Shown here: piece after piece, positions 3,101-17,521 of the stretch
Layout of the letters: each line of letters begins with the position of its first letter
How positions within the stretch are numbered: the first letter of the stretch is position 1
Origin: a virus
Length of the DNA: 41,850 bases
Direction: 5' to 3' (one strand)
Virus record (IMG/VR): IMGVR_UViG_3300012317_000001
Coordinates: 1-41,850 of that record
Translations under genes and position numbers: made by a program
Notes under the pieces: generated by a model
Database searches by the model: none
Told to the model about the DNA's origin: nothing
Seen by the model: the letters and a program-made list of their open reading frames with translations, nothing else

Positions 3101-5624
3101 TAAGCTGAAAAAATTCTTATCTAATGTATGGCGTAGCATTAAGAATACTACTGTTAAACTTGCTAAAGGTCTATGGTCAGGCGTGAAAGCTATATGGAAC
3201 ACTTTATCGCGATTTACACACCGTATATTCAATAAAATCAAGAATTTCATGAGTAGTGTTTGGCGTAATATTAAAAATACAACAGTAAGGTTAGCTAAAG
3301 CGCTATGGTCTGGTGTCAAAAATACATTTAATAGCTTATACAACGGAACTAGAAGAATTTTTAATAAAGTAAAAAACTTTATGAGTAATATTTGGCGTAA
3401 CATCAAGAATACAACAGTAAGATTAGTAAAATCTCTATGGAGTAGCGTCAAAGGTACTTGGAGTAGTTTATCAAATGGAACGCGTAACATTTTCAACAAA
3501 GTTAAAGGTTTTATGTCTAATACTTGGAGAAGCATCAAGAATACAACAGTTAACATGGCTAAAGGACTATGGAACAGCGTTCGAAGAACATTCAATAATA
3601 TGAATAGTGGACTTAAAAATATTATTGGGAAAATCAAAGGCCATATCACTGGAATGGTTACGGCCGTTAAAAGAGGTTTAAACAAATTAATTGATGGTGT
3701 TAACTGGGTAGCTAAAAAATTAGATATGCCTAAGTTACCTAAAATAAAACTCTCTACTGGTACAGAAAGTACACATACCCAAAATTATGTAACTAATGGT
3801 AAATTAAATCGAAATACATTAGCAACTGTAGGAGATAAAGGTCCAGGCAATGGTCCAGGTGGTTTTAGACATGAAACAGTTATTCCGCCTAGCGGTAAAG
3901 CTTTCATCACACCAGCTACAGATACAACAATTCCACTTGCCAAAGGAACTCGTATTTTAAATGGCGCACAAACGCATAGTTTACTTAATAAACCACAATT
4001 TAACAGCGGTACAATACCGAAATTTAGTTTGGGTACAACATTCGCCAATTTACTTGGTGGTGGTAAAAAGCCAAAAAAACATAAAAAAGATGACAATTTA
4101 GTGGGCGACGTAGCTCAAAAAACTAAAGACGGCGTTAAAGCTATGACTGGTAAAGTTGTAGAAGGTGGAAAAGCAGTCGTTGGCAGTGCATTGAACGCTG
4201 CTAAAAAAGGTAAAGATTGGCTATCTGATAAAATTGGTGATGTACTAGATTGGATAGAAAAGCCAAAAAAATTATTAGAAAAAGTATTTGAAGGTTTCGG
4301 TATTAACATGGCTTCATTTGGCATACCTAAAGGTGCTGAATTACCATTTAACCTTATGAAAGGTATGTTTAAAAAATTAAAAGAAGCAGCCGTTAATAAA
4401 GTTAAAGAATGGTTTGAACAAGCTGGCGGCGGCGACGGTGGATATATCGACCTTTCAAAAGGTATCAACTTTGGATTTGCAAGGACAGCTGCAGAAGCAC
4501 GAGCTAAAGGCTATCCTTTCAACAGACCTCATCACGGATTAGATATCAACTATAAACACGATAAAGTTTATTCAACTATGAGTGGTACAGCAAAAGCCTT
4601 TACTGGTTGGAGTAGTGGCTTTGGTAATCACATGGAAGTCACTAACGGTAACTTAAAATCTATTTACGGCCACTTACACAAACTAGCCTTTCACGGTACT
4701 AAAAAAGTAAGACCGGGTACACTTTTAGGCGTATCCGGTGGCGATCCTAGAGAGGACGGACAAAACGCTGGTAGTTCAACAGGACTTCATTTACATTACG
4801 AAATGCAACGTAACGGACGACCGTTTGACCCTACTAAATGGCTAAAAACACATAACGGTGGTGGAAGTCAAAACAAATCAGCAAGCAAGTGGAAAGGCGA
4901 TATCAAACGAGCAGCTAAGAAAATGAAAGTTAATTTATCTAACAGAGAATTAAACGGTATCGTTGCACAAATTGCTAGAGAGTCCAATGGTAACGCTGGA
5001 GTAACACAAGGTAACATCGGCGATATTAATAACTTACGTGGAACACCAGCGCAAGGTTTATTACAATACGTACCAAGTACTTTCAACTCGTACAAGGTTA
5101 AAGGACATGGCAATATTAAAAATGGTTACGACCAATTACTTGCGTTCTTTAATAACTCTAACTGGCGCAGAGATTTACCTTATGGTAAAAGTGGTTGGGG
5201 GCCAACTGGTTCAAGACGTTTTGCCACAGGTGGTTTAATCAAATCTTCAGGTTGGTACAACATTGCAGAAGGTGGTTATCCTGAATGGATAATTCCTACT
5301 GATCCATCTAGACGCAATGACGCTATGAAGATGTTGGCACTTGCAGCACAAGATATAAATAAGAAAAGTAGCACTAGAGGAAATAAACGACCTAATAACT
5401 TAAAAACACCAAATAACCTTTATTCAAATAATAATGATGAGTTATTACTACAAATGATTGAACAACAACAACAACAAATTAATTTATTAATGGAAATTGC
5501 TAGAAGTAATAGAGGTATTGAAAGTAAAGACAATAATGTCTATCTTGATGGTCGTTCGTTAAATAAAAACAACAATGAACATCAAGCATTAAATATGAAA
5601 ACTAGATTAATGGGAGGTCGTTAA
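1..5624 (+). CDS. Tail tape measure protein, continuation (C-terminal about 1870 aa); true start is the GTG at 40727 across the window junction
   Basis: Track ORF 54..5624. Reading frame is open from base 1 with first full codon at 3, in frame with 40727..41850 after subtracting 41723. Product is alpha-helical and Ala/Gly-rich with 44-aa tandem repeats. Near the C-terminus is a peptidase M23-like block (HHGLDINY...GNHMEV...GLHLHYE). After it is a lytic-transglycosylase-like block (NGIVAQIARESNGNAGVTQGN...GLLQYVPSTFNSY). Confidence 0.85.
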   Translation, partial: ELNTQLNQTTQAHNRLEMEQKQGISSMAQIRAKMSQFNDTLSLSRSNLSRAGESVKAYGNHLNTLKTNMSEQRVVLRELIAQYNHVATAQGRDSQEARELSSAITQQKIKMNELESELDQTTQSYKQLETEQRNAQRLASSGFGRSIQSVNKYKDSIRNVGSTMRSVGSTSMLYMTMPAVAGMGTAIKSSIDWEQALAGVAKTTNMSGSELNKMGNEITKMSNTMPFAATEIAGVAEAAGQLGIKKQDITSFTRTMMNLGVATNLTADEAATEFARFANAANMPIKDVDRLGSTVVALGNSTATTEKEIVEMAQRLAGAGAQAGFSSDEIMSVSAAMSSVGIEAEAGGTAMTQIWNKMTKAVAEGGDTLDSFAKTAGVSGKEFAQIWENNPSKALSMFVKGLGETEGGAKGVLKALDDVGIKGIREADTIRRMANNHQVLDKALKTGSEGWKENSALTNEANIRYETMGSKLKMLKNTFINFARTIGDAVAPIVSFLADKLTGLFEHLQGTSNATKIAIAAFTLLGAAIPPLIVATGVLAHSIVGISEAMTLLNATKGGAKFFSLFDGGIKGILPKIGQLLTKIPLIGGLMTALTGPVGIAVAAIAGIGTAFVVAYKKSETFRNIVNSVIDPVINSFKKMWNVVKSIFNAMKQLLSGNFLPTLDLLSKIMPKETATKLTMRLLQIRQLFVDAFNSIFNFAKEIGKKLTDFWAKNGDTVIQALKNIGNFFVDFFVYLKELIGPNLRDLGNLVRVIFMNVLVPVIKGAMNIILGIMKFVWPFIKVLVVDTWNNIKNIIRAALDVILGIVKIFSGIFTGQWKLVWEGVKQVFKGALVLIWNLIQLWFIGKILKVVKIFGGFFKSVISKSFNGVKTIIGTVLRFIWNIISTIFRKILSITQTIFGAVRRFISVVFHAIKNVVVNSVKAIFNGVKRWFTAVKNITHTIFSALKQFMYKIWTSIKNKVVSLAKALSNGVKNIFNSLSKVTRSIFNKLKSFMSNVWRNIKNTVIKLAKGLWNGIKATWNILSKVTRSIFNKLKKFLSNVWRSIKNTTVKLAKGLWSGVKAIWNTLSRFTHRIFNKIKNFMSSVWRNIKNTTVRLAKALWSGVKNTFNSLYNGTRRIFNKVKNFMSNIWRNIKNTTVRLVKSLWSSVKGTWSSLSNGTRNIFNKVKGFMSNTWRSIKNTTVNMAKGLWNSVRRTFNNMNSGLKNIIGKIKGHITGMVTAVKRGLNKLIDGVNWVAKKLDMPKLPKIKLSTGTESTHTQNYVTNGKLNRNTLATVGDKGPGNGPGGFRHETVIPPSGKAFITPATDTTIPLAKGTRILNGAQTHSLLNKPQFNSGTIPKFSLGTTFANLLGGGKKPKKHKKDDNLVGDVAQKTKDGVKAMTGKVVEGGKAVVGSALNAAKKGKDWLSDKIGDVLDWIEKPKKLLEKVFEGFGINMASFGIPKGAELPFNLMKGMFKKLKEAAVNKVKEWFEQAGGGDGGYIDLSKGINFGFARTAAEARAKGYPFNRPHHGLDINYKHDKVYSTMSGTAKAFTGWSSGFGNHMEVTNGNLKSIYGHLHKLAFHGTKKVRPGTLLGVSGGDPREDGQNAGSSTGLHLHYEMQRNGRPFDPTKWLKTHNGGGSQNKSASKWKGDIKRAAKKMKVNLSNRELNGIVAQIARESNGNAGVTQGNIGDINNLRGTPAQGLLQYVPSTFNSYKVKGHGNIKNGYDQLLAFFNNSNWRRDLPYGKSGWGPTGSRRFATGGLIKSSGWYNIAEGGYPEWIIPTDPSRRNDAMKMLALAAQDINKKSSTRGNKRPNNLKTPNNLYSNNNDELLLQMIEQQQQQINLLMEIARSNRGIESKDNNVYLDGRSLNKNNNEHQALNMKTRLMGGR
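2690..3620 (+). repeat. About 7 tandem 132-bp (44-aa) in-frame repeats inside the tape measure gene
   Basis: Recurring aatgtatggcg[ct]a[ag]cat[ta]aa[ag]aatac units at about 2991, 3123, 3255, 3387 and 3519. Protein repeat is SIFNKLKxFMSNVWRNIKNTxVKLAKGLWxGVKxxWNxLSxxTR. Boundaries are approximate. Confidence 0.8.
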
Positions 5625-13893: not shown

Positions 13894-14662
13894 ACTGGCA
13901 TAACAGATAAACCACAGTGATGTGGTGAAAGGTGCAGTTTGACAAACGGCCGGGTGGAAACATCTAACTTATGCAATTGTGTAAAACTAAAGGTTATCAT
14001 CTAGGTGGTAACACTAATGTGAGTAAAGCATTACTCCCTATGGCAAATGCTCGGGGATTGGGAAAAGGCCTAAGTACCATTAATGCCGTCGAACATTAGA
14101 TTTTTACATAAAGGTATGATAGTCCGAACCTATCAAGTAAGGGCGTGTACCATGATTTGTATCTGTGGTGGCGGACAGTAATACAATGAGAATGGCTAGT
14201 ACGATGATAAGGAACGTCATGGCGAAGTGAAGCATTTCGTTATTCAAAAGATAATGAAACTTCTGGGGAAGCACTTCGTCGGTCAGAACAATTAATTTTA
14301 CAATTGGCTAAATACAATGATATGTATTGGAAATTAAAACAAGCGAAAGCCTTCCCCCGTTAGTGACGAAAGCACCCTAAGACTTCACACGAAAGTGAAT
14401 GAAGTTTGTTATCGTTTCGCAAAAACGGTAGCAATCTATCGCAAAGTAAAGCAGTCAAGGGACTTGCAAACCTTTGATTAATTGAAATCGGTAGAGTAGT
14501 CTCTAACGCAATGAGTGATTGGCCATTACCAATCGGGTGTAGATAGTACGTCGGGGACGGCGTGGATAAGAGAAGAACATATAATGTCTCTAAAGCTATC
14601 TAAAGTAAGGTGTAGTCTCAGCCTATACATAAACCGTACCTTAATTGGTGCGGTCTTTTTTT
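13894..14662 (+). ncRNA. Candidate large structured non-coding RNA of about 770 nt between the promoter at 13859 and the terminator at 14633 (class unknown)
   Basis: No ORF of 60 aa or more in any frame across 13406-14713. GC is visibly higher than in the AT-rich flanks (ggccgggtgg, gctcggggattggg, cgtcggggacggcgtgg). Many local helices, several capped by GNRA loops (cacGAAAgtg, gtgacGAAAgcac), and longer-range pairings such as ggcgaagtg / cacttcgtc. Bounded by promoter and terminator in the same orientation. Confidence 0.3.
14633..14662 (+). terminator. Rho-independent terminator closing the long ORF-free transcript unit
   Basis: accgtacc / ggtgcggt (one G-U pair), loop ttaatt, then c ttttttt. 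Confidence 0.55.
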
Positions 14663-14713: not shown

Positions 14714-16111
14714 TTAAAATTTAAAAGTAATCTCCCTTATATTAAGAGTATTGACCTTACCGTTCTCATTATACTTTCTAGGAACAAAGTCAAACGCAAT
14801 CTCTTTAACCGTACTCAAGATTAACTCCTCTTTTTGCTCTACATTTAACTTACTCCAACCTTTAATCAAGATGTCATCAATCATATTTAATTGTTCATTC
14901 GTAACTGTTTGTGTACTTTCCAATTTCGCACCAGCACGTTCAACTTCATCAAGTATCTCTTTAGTTTCGTCCATCAAACTAAAATACTCATCATCTTCAA
15001 TGTAACCTAATGACCATGATCTAGTAAGTTTCTCACGTTGTTTCATAATCTTATCTATATCATAATCTAGTTTAGGTGTACTTTCTTCTACAATATCCAC
15101 TTTAAATTTATTTGTATCATATGTTTTGAGTAACTTTATAAACTTATCTTCTACTTCGCTCTCATTGAATGAAATAGTTTGAACGTTTTTATTTTTTGAA
15201 CACGTATCACATTTATAGCGTCTTACTTCGTAAGAATATCCTTTTTTATCCGTTATCTTACCAGCGTATAGATGTAGCTTATTATGGCACTGTGGACACG
15301 TTAGAACACCTCTAAAGATAGCGTGATGTTTTACCTTACTTCTATGTGTTTTGTTCTCTATAACGTCTATAATGCGTTTATAATCACTTTCTGATAACAC
15401 TGGCTCATGCGTATTCTCAATATACATATCTCCATACTTAGTATGACCACGTAATACTGGGTTTTTCATCAACCTAATAATAGAAGTCCTATTCCATTTC
15501 TTAACCTTCGGTACATTGACCTTCTTCAAATTCATCTGTCTAGCAATTTCACTACCTGATACACCATGTTTGAATTGCTCAACAAGATAATCAATTACCC
15601 ACTTATGCTTATTAGGTACAAGTTTCCCATCTACATTGTCATAGCAAAAGGGAGCTTCTCTAATATAGTTACCTTCTCTTACTGCTGCACGACTACCAAA
15701 CAATGCACGTTCACGTATTGTAGCACGTTCCCACTCAGCCATAGCACCTACCATAGTGATAAATAACTTACCAATGGCAGTTGTAGTATCAAATACTTCA
15801 GTAGCACTCTTGAACGCCACGTTATACTTCTCAAACGTTTCTAGCATTTCAAGTAAGTCTTTAACATTACGTGTTAATCTATCTAACTTATAAACTAACA
15901 CTAGATCATAATTTTCTAGATTATCCATAATACGCTTTAATGCTGGTCTATTCATCGAGCCACCACTTACACCAGCGTCAGTAAATACTTTGAAATCGTG
16001 CCAATTCTGAACTTCGCAAAAGGCTTTTAATTTCCGTTCTTGCTCATGGATAGAATAACCTTCCGTTGCTTGCTCATAGGAACTCACTCTTGTGTAGATT
16101 GCCACTTTCAT
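14714..16111 (-). CDS. int: Large serine recombinase (integrase)
   Basis: Track ORF 14714..16120. The better start is ATG 16109-16111 with RBS aaaggagtgacatatATG. N-terminus MKVAIYTRVSSYEQ...GYSI..Q is the resolvase catalytic domain with Ser. A long recombinase domain with Cys-rich zinc-ribbon-like motifs (CPQCHNKL, CDTCSKNK) and a coiled coil follows; 465 aa. Confidence 0.9.
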   Translation of the reverse strand: MKVAIYTRVSSYEQATEGYSIHEQERKLKAFCEVQNWHDFKVFTDAGVSGGSMNRPALKRIMDNLENYDLVLVYKLDRLTRNVKDLLEMLETFEKYNVAFKSATEVFDTTTAIGKLFITMVGAMAEWERATIRERALFGSRAAVREGNYIREAPFCYDNVDGKLVPNKHKWVIDYLVEQFKHGVSGSEIARQMNLKKVNVPKVKKWNRTSIIRLMKNPVLRGHTKYGDMYIENTHEPVLSESDYKRIIDVIENKTHRSKVKHHAIFRGVLTCPQCHNKLHLYAGKITDKKGYSYEVRRYKCDTCSKNKNVQTISFNESEVEDKFIKLLKTYDTNKFKVDIVEESTPKLDYDIDKIMKQREKLTRSWSLGYIEDDEYFSLMDETKEILDEVERAGAKLESTQTVTNEQLNMIDDILIKGWSKLNVEQKEELILSTVKEIAFDFVPRKYNENGKVNTLNIREITFKF

Positions 16112-16158
16112 ATATGTCACTCCTTTAAAAAATGATGCTACCTAAGAATTTATCGCAT

Positions 16159-16186
16159 AAAAAAAGACACCTATATAAAATAGGTG
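16159..16186 (-). terminator. Terminator for the leftward cI operon, upstream of the int gene
   Basis: Stem cacctat / ataggtg, loop ataaa. The minus strand then reads ttttttt. Confidence 0.45.
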
Positions 16187-16348
16187 CCACTTATAATTAT
16201 AAGATTTCAAGTTTACTATTCAAATATGAATAGCGAATATGAAAAAAGTTTAGGAATAATTCCCTAATATATTGTTATAGTAGCACCTTATTCATTTTTT
16301 GGCAAAGAAAGTGATACACATAAAGTGCGTACCACATATCAATAAAAT

Positions 16349-16492
16349 TTAAAATATAGATGTTACTATCCACTTCAACAATTCCCAGAGCAGCATAATT
16401 GCAAATATGAATCCTAAACAACCTATCCCCATTCCTGGAATTGCTAATAAACAAGTATAGAAGTTAGTACAACCGTCATTTTGTTTAGCCAT
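16349..16492 (-). CDS. 47-aa hydrophobic membrane peptide (MAKQNDGCTNFYTCLLAIPGMGIGCLGFIFAIMLLWELLKWIVTSIF)
   Basis: Strong RBS aaggagatagaaATG on the minus strand. Under 60 aa so absent from the track. Co-directional with and downstream of cI. Confidence 0.5.
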   Translation of the reverse strand: MAKQNDGCTNFYTCLLAIPGMGIGCLGFIFAIMLLWELLKWIVTSIF

Positions 16493-16543
16493 TTCTATCT
16501 CCTTTATTTTTATAATTTATATTAAAACGCTAAAAGGACGCAG

Positions 16544-16684
16544 TTAATCTTTATAAACATCTTTATTTTCAGTTAACGGTATATCGTTTTTTACCATATA
16601 TTCCAATTGTTTCATACTATATACTGGGACTTTCACTAATTCGTCCCAGTGTTTTGGTTCTTCGTCATAATATTCCCATTCCAT
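16544..16684 (-). CDS. 46-aa acidic protein (MEWEYYDEEPKHWDELVKVPVYSMKQLEYMVKNDIPLTENKDVYKD)
   Basis: RBS ggaggttttattATG begins 11 nt after the cI stop, suggesting translational coupling. Under 60 aa. Confidence 0.5.
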   Translation of the reverse strand: MEWEYYDEEPKHWDELVKVPVYSMKQLEYMVKNDIPLTENKDVYKD

Positions 16685-16695
16685 AATAAAACCTC

Positions 16696-17412
16696 CTATA
16701 AAATAACTTTTCCAACTAATCTAACACTTTCATTCTCGTAAAAGTGTAAGTCACGATAATCTTTGTTTAACGAAACAAGCGTCAGCCTATTTTCTCCCAC
16801 ATGAACTTTCTTAATATAAGACTCTCCGTTGATAATGAATACACCTATTTGACCATTTTTTATATTATTAGATTTCTCTACAAAGATAATTTCTTTATCA
16901 CTAAACATTGGCTCCATTGAATTACCATTAACTTGCAAAGCAATATCATGTGGAGGGATGTAACCTTTGACGTTAACTTTAAAAATTGGTTCATCAAAGA
17001 TATGTTCACCAGTACCAGCAGACACATAACCATTAACGTCAGTTAATGTTGTATTTTCATTTTTGTATGTATCTAGGTCAATCACATTATCATCAGTAGA
17101 GTTTTGCAATTCTAACTGATGATTAGCGAAATTTAATACATTATGTTGGCGTGGAGGTGTGAGTTGATTGTAAACAGTTGTAATATCATTGTCTTCTTTA
17201 TAGGTGGTATCAATGTCGCTTTTACCAACCCCGAAGACGTCAGCTATTCTTTGAATTACACCATGTGAAGGGTTGGAACGTAAATTTAAATAATCACTTA
17301 ATGTAGATGGTTTAATATTAATTAATTCAGCTAATTGTTTTTGAGTCATTTCAGCTTCTTTTATATATTTCCTTATATTATTAGCGATTATTTTGTTTCT
17401 TTCTTTATTCAT
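16696..17412 (-). CDS. cI: CI-like repressor (HTH_XRE N-terminal domain with S24 LexA-type autopeptidase C-terminal domain)
   Basis: Track ORF, 238 aa. The HTH reads QKQLAELINIKPSTLSDYLN. C-terminal GNSMEP (the Ser) ...GQIGVF...VGKVIL (the Lys) is the S24 signature. Confidence 0.85.
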   Translation of the reverse strand: MNKERNKIIANNIRKYIKEAEMTQKQLAELINIKPSTLSDYLNLRSNPSHGVIQRIADVFGVGKSDIDTTYKEDNDITTVYNQLTPPRQHNVLNFANHQLELQNSTDDNVIDLDTYKNENTTLTDVNGYVSAGTGEHIFDEPIFKVNVKGYIPPHDIALQVNGNSMEPMFSDKEIIFVEKSNNIKNGQIGVFIINGESYIKKVHVGENRLTLVSLNKDYRDLHFYENESVRLVGKVIL

Positions 17413-17430: not shown

Positions 17431-17521
17431 TTCGTATTATACGAAATTTTCATATTAAAGTAAAGTTTTTTACGAAAAAAACGTATTTAGTGTTGACAAT
17501 ACGAAAAAAACGTATTATATT
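17431..17521. promoter_or_regulatory. Immunity switch: divergent cI and cro promoters with three operator palindromes based on TACGAAA / TTTCGTA
   Basis: ttcgta-tta-tacgaa at 17431-17445 overlaps a leftward -10 (the minus strand reads tataat). tacgaaaaaaacgta occurs at 17471-17485 and 17499-17515. Rightward promoter TTGACA at 17493-17498, a 17-nt spacer containing the third operator, -10 tatatt at about 17516-17521. Confidence 0.6.

What the first reader, a model, noticed from the sequence alone, without database searches (positions are those of the whole stretch)
16349..16700. Two unannotated small genes co-transcribed with cI next to the integrase: candidate superinfection-exclusion or abortive-infection module
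Downstream of cI on the same strand, with coupled strong RBSs, lie a 46-aa highly acidic protein and a 47-aa single-pass membrane peptide. Both fall below the ORF-caller threshold. The int-cI interval is a known hotspot for prophage-encoded defence and exclusion genes expressed in the lysogen. A small membrane peptide plus an acidic partner is reminiscent of Sie/Abi or toxin-antitoxin-like pairs. The cI operon then ends at a terminator at 16159-16186 before int.
Basis: partly seen in the sequence, partly recalled or inferred. Interest (0 to 1): 0.55.

Follow-up and report, generated by a model that had tools for sequence, protein, structure and literature searches.

The report
Two independent small genes behind cI
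Both small reading frames after the phage repressor gene are real, conserved genes, but they are two separate, independently shuffled accessory genes of unknown function rather than a paired toxin/exclusion module.

Summary
On the minus strand an S24-type cI (16696-17412) is followed by a 46-aa acidic ORF (16544-16684), a 47-aa hydrophobic ORF (16349-16492), two hairpins and a serine integrase. Each small ORF has a GGAGG-type RBS. Both are protein-coding under purifying selection (dN/dS about 0.05-0.3).

They are not a pair. The 46-aa protein belongs to a Staphylococcus-phage-only family (phrog_31815 plus phrog_6385; phiETA ORF5, phiPV83 orf4). In about 45 loci it is almost always the first gene 10-17 nt after an S24 cI, whatever the cI allele, integrase type or downstream cargo, and usually without the peptide. 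The 47-aa peptide (phage 37 ORF133 family) occurs after cI or after an ImmR/ImmA pair, usually without the 46-aa gene. Both occur together only in the window and one metagenomic contig.

No match to any defence, toxin-antitoxin, Sie, Pfam or PDB family was found.

Best reading, partly inferred: the 46-aa protein is a repressor-operon accessory that works by binding another protein; the peptide is a lysogen-expressed membrane cargo cassette, possibly an exclusion factor. The toxin-antitoxin/Abi pair reading is not supported. Homologues are already annotated as hypothetical proteins. Interest is moderate.

The parts
17436..17464 (-). Promoter-like site (TTTACT-17-TATAAT, 10/12) upstream of cI; presumed lysogenic promoter of the operon
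   Evidence: consensus match only, function inferred
16696..17412 (-). cI-like repressor, 238 aa (HTH_3 + Peptidase_S24)
   Evidence: It is 92-94% identical to the cI of IME-SA4 and of StB20-like prophages
16544..16684 (-). 46-aa acidic soluble protein, member of the Staphylococcus-phage 'cI-trailing' family (phrog_31815; distant relatives in phrog_6385). Core motif (V/I)PxYTxE(E/Q)LxYR(V/L)KNxLPIT
   Evidence: AF2 gives pLDDT 71 with a single helix at residues 24-32
16515..16548 (-). Cassette 'linker' motif ATTAAC-(hairpin)-TTTAATATAAAT overlapping the stop codon of the 46-aa ORF. The hairpin is degenerate in the window
   Evidence: one copy in the whole window, 25 further copies at cassette borders in related loci, always on the operon strand. 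Folds. The scans flag it as terminator-like or as promoter-like in relatives
16349..16492 (-). 47-aa hydrophobic peptide with a predicted single kinked transmembrane helix and conserved MAKQNDGC...IPxxGxGCL...E..KW...IF. Family of S. aureus phage 37 ORF133
16311..16335 (-). Hairpin immediately 3' of the peptide ORF (10 bp, followed by UUUCUUUG). It travels with the peptide cassette in other phages, where the U-tract is often missing
16196..16223 (-). Promoter-like site (TTGAAT-16-TATAAT, 10/12) in the spacer, directly upstream of the canonical terminator. Possible int leader; unexplained
16159..16188 (-). Canonical intrinsic terminator (9-bp stem plus U7) about 45 nt upstream of the int start
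14714..16111 (-). Large serine recombinase (integrase). The likely start is ATG 16111 (MKVAIYTRVSS...) behind AAAGGAG

Best explanation
The interval holds two separate accessory genes of a staphylococcal temperate phage. In the window both are most likely transcribed from the cI promoter in the lysogen.

(1) The 46-aa gene is the conserved 'trailing' gene of S24-type cI operons in Staphylococcus phages. It is translationally coupled to cI (11-nt gap, RBS overlapping the cI stop). It sits upstream of a recurrent hairpin/linker that marks the border to the variable cargo zone. Its product is a short soluble peptide with one helix and a conserved motif. This suggests it works by binding a partner protein rather than by catalysis. 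Because almost the same core sequence follows cI proteins only 22-33% identical to each other, the partner is more likely a constant host factor or a conserved S24 surface (RecA, LexA, the ClpX route of CI removal, or the S24 active-site region) than an allele-specific cI surface. The inferred role is tuning the stability or induction of lysogeny.

(2) The 47-aa gene is an independent cargo cassette (ORF plus its own 3' hairpin). It encodes a single-pass membrane peptide made in the lysogen. The inferred role is a membrane-acting lysogenic-conversion factor, most plausibly interference with superinfecting phage at the membrane.

Shown: existence, coding status, synteny, independence of the two genes, lack of known homologues. 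Inferred: co-transcription, and both functions.
For: Coding status:
- dN/dS is 0.06-0.31 for the peptide.
- For the 46-aa gene, pairs within the subfamily show 5-8 synonymous against 0-3 non-synonymous differences per 30 codons, and 11 of 16 polymorphic codons are synonymous-only.

Synteny of the 46-aa family:
- It is the first ORF 10-17 nt after an S24 cI in the window, StB20, L011-L028, L031, L037-L044, L046-L057 and L060.
- The cI alleles have 212, 224, 232, 234, 236, 238, 239, 240, 249 and 256 aa.
- The integrase can be a tyrosine or a serine recombinase, and the cargo differs.
- The only exceptions are Sa2-type phages, with one ORF in between, and a second copy in L043/L044.
- Two cI C-terminal types (...GKVIL and ...YNYQIFE, 22-33% identical) carry nearly the same core.

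Family limits: Staphylococcus only, with 9 clusters among 1.84 billion representatives.

Structure of the 46-aa protein: one confident helix and no fold match.

Linker at cassette borders.

Peptide:
- It follows cI of 208 or 212 aa without the 46-aa gene.
- It follows an ImmR + M78 peptidase pair.
- It follows the repressor in S. aureus phage 37.
- It is always on the repressor strand and is followed by variable cargo.
- The predicted transmembrane helix has invariant P19, G22, G24 and C25.
- In the window no promoter above chance level and only a degenerate hairpin lie between cI and the peptide.
Against: - No experiment and no homology links either protein to any function.
- IME-SA4 has a cI 99% identical to that of L011 but lacks the 46-aa gene. 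L003 and L035 carry a cI 76-77% identical to that of L021 and L024 and also lack it. The 46-aa protein is therefore dispensable for a working switch.
- Linkage to cI could reflect position and shared descent rather than function.
- In most relatives a terminator-like hairpin follows the 46-aa gene. Cargo expression, including that of the peptide, may not simply follow cI.
- Truncated 35-37-aa variants exist in some genomes.
- The only functional analogue I could name, GIL01 gp7, shows no sequence similarity.
Confidence: 0.55

Rival explanations
1. One reading: the acidic protein and the membrane peptide form one two-gene module (toxin-antitoxin-like or Abi/Sie pair), in which the acidic partner neutralises or regulates the membrane peptide.
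For: They are adjacent, on the same strand and closely spaced in the window and in L023, and each has its own RBS. Small membrane peptide plus small soluble partner is a known TA/Abi layout (own knowledge).
Against: The two genes are separable.
- About 40 loci have the 46-aa gene with other cargo and no peptide.
- At least 14 loci have the peptide with no 46-aa gene.
- The recurrent cassette linker lies between them.
- There are no PADLOC, Pfam or NCBIfam hits.
Confidence: 0.05
2. The 47-aa peptide is a type I toxin (membrane-depolarising peptide) controlled by a cis-antisense RNA. It would act as an addiction or abortive-infection element.
For: Its size and hydrophobicity fit. A weak promoter-like site on the opposite strand (16299-16326, 9/12) points into the ORF from its 3' end. 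A conserved 3' hairpin travels with the ORF.
Against: - The antisense site is at chance level (20 sites found against 21.5 expected) and its -35 region is not conserved in homologous cassettes. No antisense promoter appears in L003.
- Rfam gives no RNA hit in the region.
- The peptide has a strong RBS and sits in an operon expected to be constitutively expressed in the lysogen. That is hard to reconcile with a potent toxin.
Confidence: 0.08
3. The 46-aa protein has nothing to do with the repressor. It is a lysogen-expressed defence or counter-defence factor (a moron) that merely exploits the best-expressed slot of the prophage.
For: - The slot is a defence hotspot.
- The gene is dispensable for otherwise near-identical cI alleles.
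- The nearly identical core behind very different cI types argues against cI-specific binding.
Against: - Unlike the true cargo, it is one conserved family at one fixed position with fixed coupling distance, upstream of the linker that precedes the cargo.
- It was never seen behind ImmR/ImmA-type repressors in this small sample of 4 loci.
- No defence-model hit.
Confidence: 0.25
4. The conservation over 16493-16684 is at the nucleotide level (recombination linker, promoter or terminator, or an RNA element), and the 46-aa ORF is incidental.
For: A conserved non-coding linker abuts the ORF and marks mosaic junctions. The upstream junction lies inside the first ~8 codons.
Against: - Substitutions are concentrated at synonymous sites.
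- The amino-acid motif is retained in S. aureus and S. pseudintermedius relatives although synonymous sites are nearly saturated (pS 0.55-0.85).
- There is no Rfam hit.
Confidence: 0.03

Closest known systems
phrog_31815 / phrog_6385 small proteins (StB20 gp03, IME1318_01; S. aureus phiETA ORF5, phiPV83 orf4, Sa2/PVL-phage hypothetical proteins; SpT152 gp04)
   Same: The 46-aa protein is a full-length member of phrog_31815 (E 7.5e-32) and is 93% identical to StB20 gp03. It shares the PxYTxEELxYRxKNxLPIT core and the position right after cI with the S. aureus and S. pseudintermedius relatives.
   Different: Nothing is known about the function of any member. The PHROG label 'transcriptional regulator' appears to come from a mis-placed cI annotation on StB20 gp03. 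S. aureus members are followed by an overlapping 61-aa soluble ORF (phrog_5192) that is absent from the window.
S. aureus phage 37 ORF133 and unnamed 47-aa staphylococcal prophage peptides (P0008-P0010)
   Same: Same length, 60-89% identity, same conserved N-terminal MxKQNDGC, IPxxGxGCL and C-terminal E..KW..TSIF, and same position directly behind the repressor unit.
   Different: Uncharacterised. The partner genes differ in every context. The family is not in PHROGs, Pfam or PADLOC.
Bacteriophage GIL01 gp7 (50-aa protein that binds host LexA, enhances DNA binding and blocks RecA-mediated autocleavage; PMC4551915)
   Same: A working analogy only. It is a phage protein of about 50 aa with no DNA-binding domain that acts on an S24-family repressor and stabilises lysogeny. 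In GIL01 it also lies just after a small LexA-like gene.
   Different: No sequence or profile similarity (hhalign probability 0.07%). No structural match. Different phage type (tectivirus), and its gene is in the lytic/early operon. No binding data exist for the staphylococcal family.
Prophage superinfection-exclusion proteins encoded between int and the repressor in Gram-positive phages (Lactococcus Sie2009, S. thermophilus TP-J34 Ltp) and small membrane exclusion proteins such as T4 Imm or HK97 gp15 (own knowledge)
   Same: Position between repressor and integrase, on the repressor strand, with membrane localisation predicted for the 47-aa peptide. Neighbouring cassettes in relatives encode lipoproteins (DUF5067 and others) that resemble Ltp-type exclusion proteins in layout.
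   Different: No sequence similarity to any of them was detected in Pfam, PHROGs or PADLOC. At 47 aa it is much smaller than Sie2009 or Ltp. No phenotype is known.
Staphylococcal type I toxins (PepA1, SprG1, Fst-like; own knowledge)
   Same: Small hydrophobic single-helix peptide.
   Different: No cognate antisense RNA or Rfam family. It is embedded in a repressor operon with a strong RBS. I noted no similarity by eye to the toxin sequences I recall; this was not formally tested.

Membership tests
phrog_31815 (+ phrog_6385) cI-trailing small protein family | Full-length profile match | tested here: met
   phrog_31815 E 7.5e-32, residues 1-46 on profile 1-46; phrog_6385 E 1.1e-3. SpT152 gp04 matches both PHROGs.
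phrog_31815 (+ phrog_6385) cI-trailing small protein family | Position: first ORF after an S24-type cI, on the same strand | tested here: met
   11-nt gap in the window. The same arrangement is seen in about 40 loci.
Phage 37 ORF133 membrane-peptide family | Sequence similarity over the full length and conserved motifs | tested here: met
   tblastn 59.6% identity over residues 1-47, E 3e-9. 74-89% identity to P0008-P0010. 31 invariant columns.
Type II-like toxin-antitoxin / two-gene Abi pair | The two genes are co-inherited as an adjacent pair | tested here: not met
   They co-occur only in the window and L023. Each is found alone in many loci.
Type II-like toxin-antitoxin / two-gene Abi pair | Match to a known toxin, antitoxin or Abi model | tested here: not met
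   No PADLOC, Pfam or NCBIfam family at meaningful E-values.
Type II-like toxin-antitoxin / two-gene Abi pair | Toxicity of one partner, rescued by the other | not testable with these tools
   Needs expression experiments.
Type I toxin-antitoxin | Small hydrophobic membrane peptide | tested here: met
   GRAVY 1.12; predicted helix 11-46.
Type I toxin-antitoxin | Overlapping cis-antisense RNA with its own conserved promoter | tested here: not met
   Only a 9/12 promoter-like site in the window, at chance level. It is not conserved in homologous cassettes. No Rfam hit.
Superinfection exclusion (Sie) proteins of Gram-positive prophages | Encoded between repressor and integrase on the lysogenic transcript | tested here: met
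   Position and strand. No strong terminator or promoter separates it from cI in the window. Co-transcription itself was not measured.
Superinfection exclusion (Sie) proteins of Gram-positive prophages | Membrane-associated | tested here: met
   Met for the 47-aa peptide only. The 46-aa protein is soluble and acidic.
Superinfection exclusion (Sie) proteins of Gram-positive prophages | Homology to a described Sie family | tested here: not met
   No hit in Pfam, PHROGs or PADLOC.
Superinfection exclusion (Sie) proteins of Gram-positive prophages | Blocks DNA entry of superinfecting phage without affecting adsorption | not testable with these tools
   Needs efficiency-of-plating, adsorption and DNA-injection assays.
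GIL01 gp7-like S24-repressor binders | Sequence or structural homology to gp7 | tested here: not met
   hhalign probability 0.07%. No PDB sequence or Foldseek hit.
GIL01 gp7-like S24-repressor binders | Binds the S24 domain of LexA or CI and inhibits autocleavage | not testable with these tools
   Needs pull-down and cleavage assays, or complex prediction, which was not available here.
Moron (independent accessory cassette in a prophage) | Present or absent between otherwise closely related phages | tested here: met
   IME-SA4 against L011 (cI 99% identical, 46-aa gene absent or present). The peptide is present behind three different repressor types.
Moron (independent accessory cassette in a prophage) | Own promoter and terminator | tested here: inconclusive
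   Hairpins flank the peptide cassette. The linker scores as terminator-like in some loci and promoter-like (TTAACA-17-TAATAT, 9/12) in others. All of these are consensus matches only.

The most novel reading that the evidence does not exclude
The 46-aa protein and its S. aureus and S. pseudintermedius relatives would be a previously unrecognised, genus-wide regulator of the staphylococcal phage lysis-lysogeny switch. It would be a roughly 50-aa peptide, co-translated with S24-type CI, that binds a constant component of the induction pathway (RecA*, LexA, the S24 catalytic cleft or the ClpX step). It would thereby set the induction threshold of prophages, including the PVL-, ETA- and LukM/F-PV83-converting phages. 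This is the same job as GIL01 gp7 but an unrelated protein.
Probability: 0.2. Interest if true: 0.65.

Novelty: new member of a known kind. Interest (0 to 1): 0.38.

Why it matters
The 46-aa family is the only constant gene between cI and the variable cargo in many staphylococcal prophages. These include toxin-converting S. aureus phages (phiETA, phiPV83, Sa2/PVL types), yet the family has never been studied. In one reference genome, and in PHROGs, it even carries a wrong label. If it tunes CI stability or SOS induction, it would affect toxin-phage mobilisation under antibiotic stress.

The peptide and the cassette linker show how the cI-int interval is built from exchangeable units. This is useful for mining defence and exclusion genes in staphylococcal prophages.

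If neither gene has a phenotype, the result is simply two more conserved hypothetical small proteins.

Tried and rejected
- Pfam, PHROGs, NCBIfam and PADLOC scans of both proteins gave only the two uninformative PHROGs for the 46-aa protein. For the peptide they gave sub-threshold noise (DUF6095, SecE).
- A profile search of 1.84 billion representatives found only nine small staphylococcal clusters plus one spurious repeat protein.
- A PDB profile search gave only a chance match to ATP synthase subunit 8 (E 2.5). Foldseek against the PDB gave nothing. The AF2 model is a single helix and too simple for fold inference.
- Comparison with GIL01 gp7 showed no similarity.
- Rfam scans of the region and of the whole window found no RNA in 16150-16700.
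- The antisense promoter for a type I antitoxin is at chance level and not conserved.
- A recombination directionality factor role for the 46-aa protein was rejected. It occurs with both tyrosine and serine integrases and lies on the lysogenic transcript.
- An arbitrium-like or other secreted signalling peptide was rejected because there is no signal sequence (sequence inspection).
- A lipoprotein reading of the peptide's 'NDGC' was rejected because no hydrophobic signal region precedes the Cys (sequence inspection).
- Literature searches found no functional study of either family.
- The genome-contig scan returned only 3 loci and the viral-contig scans 12 and 2. These confirmed the synteny but added few new contexts.
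Full report
**What is there.**
The window is a mosaic siphovirus genome of coagulase-negative Staphylococcus type. The nearest phage records, IME-SA4 and StB20, cover only 8-17% of the first 25 kb at about 85% identity.

Features on the minus strand, in order:
- a promoter-like site at 17464..17436;
- a 238-aa HTH_3 + Peptidase_S24 repressor (17412..16696);
- a 46-aa ORF (16684..16544);
- a 47-aa ORF (16492..16349);
- a hairpin (16335..16311);
- a spacer of about 120 nt;
- a canonical terminator (16188..16166 plus U7);
- a large serine recombinase, whose likely start is ATG 16111.

The cI stop is embedded in TAGGAGG, 7 nt before the first small ORF. AAGGAG precedes the second small ORF. The 46-aa product is acidic (12 D/E, 6 K/R, pI 4.5). 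The 47-aa product is strongly hydrophobic (GRAVY 1.12) and is modelled as one long helix kinked at Pro19. It missed the hairpin directly after the peptide ORF.

**Are they genes?**
Short ORFs abound in this AT-rich DNA, so conservation is the test.

The peptide has homologues at 74-89% identity in staphylococcal prophages and at 60% in S. aureus phage 37 (ORF133). Window vs L023 differs by 5 synonymous and 0 non-synonymous changes. Against more distant copies dN/dS is 0.06-0.31, with synonymous sites half saturated.

The 46-aa ORF is 93% identical to StB20 gp03 and to a 'MULTISPECIES hypothetical protein' seen on 75 contigs. Across 14 distinct nucleotide versions of the shared 37-codon block, 11 of 16 polymorphic codons are synonymous-only. 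The other five are conservative changes (V/I, S/T, E/K, H/Y, K/Q).

A profile search extended the family to S. aureus, S. pseudintermedius, S. delphini, S. felis and S. intermedius proteins of 46-61 aa. These share the core (V/I)PxYTxE(E/Q)LxYR(V/L)KNxLPIT at only 31-36% overall identity. Both ORFs are therefore protein-coding genes under purifying selection.

**They are not a pair.**
I looked up the genomic contexts of the homologues.

The 46-aa family is almost always the first ORF after an S24-type cI, with a gap of 10-17 nt. This holds in:
- the window and StB20;
- 18 contigs carrying P0001 or P0002;
- 6 S. aureus contigs carrying P0050;
- SpT152;
- S. devriesei and S. intermedius genomes;
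- 10 IMG/VR contigs.

The exceptions are Sa2-type S. aureus phages, which have one 147-149-aa ORF in between, and a second copy in L043/L044.

The cI alleles range from 212 to 256 aa and fall into two C-terminal types that are only 22-33% identical. The integrase can be a tyrosine or a serine recombinase. The gene that follows is, in turn, a DUF5067 lipoprotein, other lipoproteins, a MethyltransfD12+DpnII unit, an RNase_T protein, SLATT+TIR, or nothing before int. The peptide follows only in the window and in L023, where it is identical.

Conversely, the peptide follows cI proteins of 208 or 212 aa directly, with no 46-aa gene. Downstream of it lie PemK-like, TM2 or Abi_2 cargo. It also follows an ImmR-like HTH plus M78 (ImmA-like) peptidase pair, a 75-aa ORF, or the repressor of phage 37.

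This distribution is not what an obligate toxin-antitoxin or two-component Abi module would show.

**Architecture of the interval.**
A short linker recurs at the cassette borders: ATTAAC, a 5-6-bp GC hairpin, then TTT(A/G)AT(A/G)TAAAT. It is found right after cI when no 46-aa gene is present, right after the 46-aa gene when it is present, and again before further cargo. I counted 26 copies, all on the operon strand, with just one in the whole window (16548..16515).

In relatives the scans flag it as terminator-like or promoter-like (TTAACA-17-TAATAT). In the window and in L023 the hairpin is degenerate, so read-through from cI into the peptide gene is plausible there.

Spacers in several relatives also contain the untranslated 3' end of an ImmA-like gene (HYGNY.ITFEPLRV...). 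This matches the intact gene end in L032 and L061. Such relics are footprints of recombination between different repressor modules.

The upstream mosaic junction lies inside the first ~8 codons of the 46-aa gene: MEWEYYDE goes with ...GKVIL repressors, and MKSDFEQE or MSGVYEQE with ...YNYQIFE repressors.

So the 46-aa gene belongs to the repressor side of the linker, and the peptide, with its own 3' hairpin, belongs to the cargo side.

**What they might do.**
Neither protein matches Pfam, NCBIfam or PADLOC.

The only PHROG label, 'transcriptional regulator' for phrog_31815, appears to be an annotation artefact. The S. aureus branch is phrog_6385, 'unknown function'.

The family is confined to Staphylococcus, with nine clusters among 1.84 billion representatives. 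AF2 gives one confident helix (residues 24-32) flanked by extended, lower-confidence segments. There is no fold or PDB match. Such a protein most likely acts by binding something.

Two facts bear on the partner:
- Nearly the same core sequence serves behind very different cI proteins. This argues against an allele-specific contact and for a constant target.
- IME-SA4 carries a cI 99% identical to that of L011 but lacks the gene, so the protein is an accessory, not a core switch component.

My best guess (about 0.4 within the overall model) is that it modulates lysogeny stability or induction, acting on RecA*, LexA, the S24 cleft or the ClpX-dependent removal of CI. The ClpX step is described for S. 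aureus phages in PMC10584840. The nearest functional precedent is the 50-aa gp7 of GIL01 (PMC4551915), but there is no sequence relationship. The main alternative (about 0.25-0.3) is a lysogen-expressed defence or counter-defence factor.

For the peptide, three features fit a lysogen-expressed membrane factor:
- the invariant P19, G22, G24 and C25 within a single transmembrane helix;
- its cassette behaviour;
- its neighbours, which are lipoproteins and defence genes.

A superinfection-exclusion role is the most natural guess, but it rests on position only. A type I toxin is unlikely. There is no conserved antisense promoter, no RNA family hit, and the peptide has a strong RBS in an operon expected to be on in every lysogen.

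**Comparison and verdict.**
Both genes are members of existing but uncharacterised small-protein families that public pipelines already call as hypothetical proteins. The kind of thing, accessory genes in the repressor-integrase interval of a temperate phage, is well known.

Its interpretation is partly supported: the interval is a hotspot, the location implies lysogen expression, and the peptide may be an exclusion factor. It is wrong in treating the two ORFs as one module.

The most interesting residue is the tight, genus-wide coupling of the 46-aa family to S24 cI genes, including those of toxin-converting S. aureus phages. This makes a testable case for an overlooked switch accessory.

Interest 0.38. 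Novelty: new member of a known kind.

Noticed in passing
window 14220-14624 (+), with a terminator-like hairpin at 14633-14654 (+): Full-length match to the Rfam GOLLD RNA model (RF02032): 261.6 bits against a gathering score of 150, E 1.6e-74, model positions 1-416 of 416. It lies convergent with and just 3' of the serine integrase, near where attP is expected. No tRNA genes were found anywhere in the window. A GOLLD RNA in a Staphylococcus temperate phage may merit its own look.
   Followed up: partly
L001 (StB20, NC_019915.1) 2445-2585; phrog_31815: The StB20 RefSeq CDS G174_gp03 (46 aa) carries the product and note of the neighbouring, unannotated cI gene ('transcriptional regulator; HTH_3; Peptidase S24'). 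PHROGs lists phrog_31815 as 'transcriptional regulator', apparently inheriting this error.
   Followed up: partly
window 16515-16548 (-); L003 4949 and 5246, L005 4948, L012-L019 4137, L022 4134, L035 3949 and others: A recurrent cassette linker (ATTAAC, GC hairpin, TTTRATRTAAAT) marks the borders between the repressor unit and cargo cassettes in staphylococcal prophage lysogeny modules. There are 26 copies, all on the operon strand. It could be a leaky terminator, a promoter or a recombination hotspot.
   Followed up: partly
L012-L014, L018, L019 about 4175-4240; L003-L010 and L035 about 5185-5250: Non-coding spacers contain relics of the 3' end of an ImmA-like M78 peptidase gene (HYGNY.ITFEPLRV...). 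They match the intact gene ends in L032 and L061 and are footprints of exchange between S24-type and ImmR/ImmA-type repressor modules.
   Followed up: partly
window 16159-16223 (-): A good promoter-like site (TTGAAT-16-TATAAT, 10/12) sits immediately upstream of the canonical terminator, about 45 nt before the int start. A transcript starting there would begin at the terminator hairpin. This could be an int leader or attenuator, or chance.
   Followed up: no
P0006, P0007, P0021, P0027 (homologues of the 46-aa ORF): Truncated 35-37-aa variants end in frameshifted tails right at the A-run GTAAAAAACGAT, losing the conserved KNDIPLT motif. They are seen on up to 9 contigs, including complete genomes. 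They are either homopolymer sequencing errors or real pseudogenes.
   Followed up: no
L037-L042 3644-3829; L029 2604-2789; L043 3085-3273: In S. aureus relatives the cI-trailing small gene is followed by a 61-62-aa soluble, charged ORF (phrog_5192, unknown function) that overlaps it by 4 to 14 nt. This second conserved small gene of the cI operon is absent from the window.
   Followed up: partly
L038 3865-4703; L007 5445-6485; L012/L013/L018 4296-5970; L015-L018 and L020 about 2624-2857: Defence-type cargo occupies the same cI-int slot in relatives: SLATT+TIR, Abi_2 and MethyltransfD12+DpnII. A Tad2-like (anti-Thoeris) gene lies next to cro in several of these prophages.
   Followed up: no
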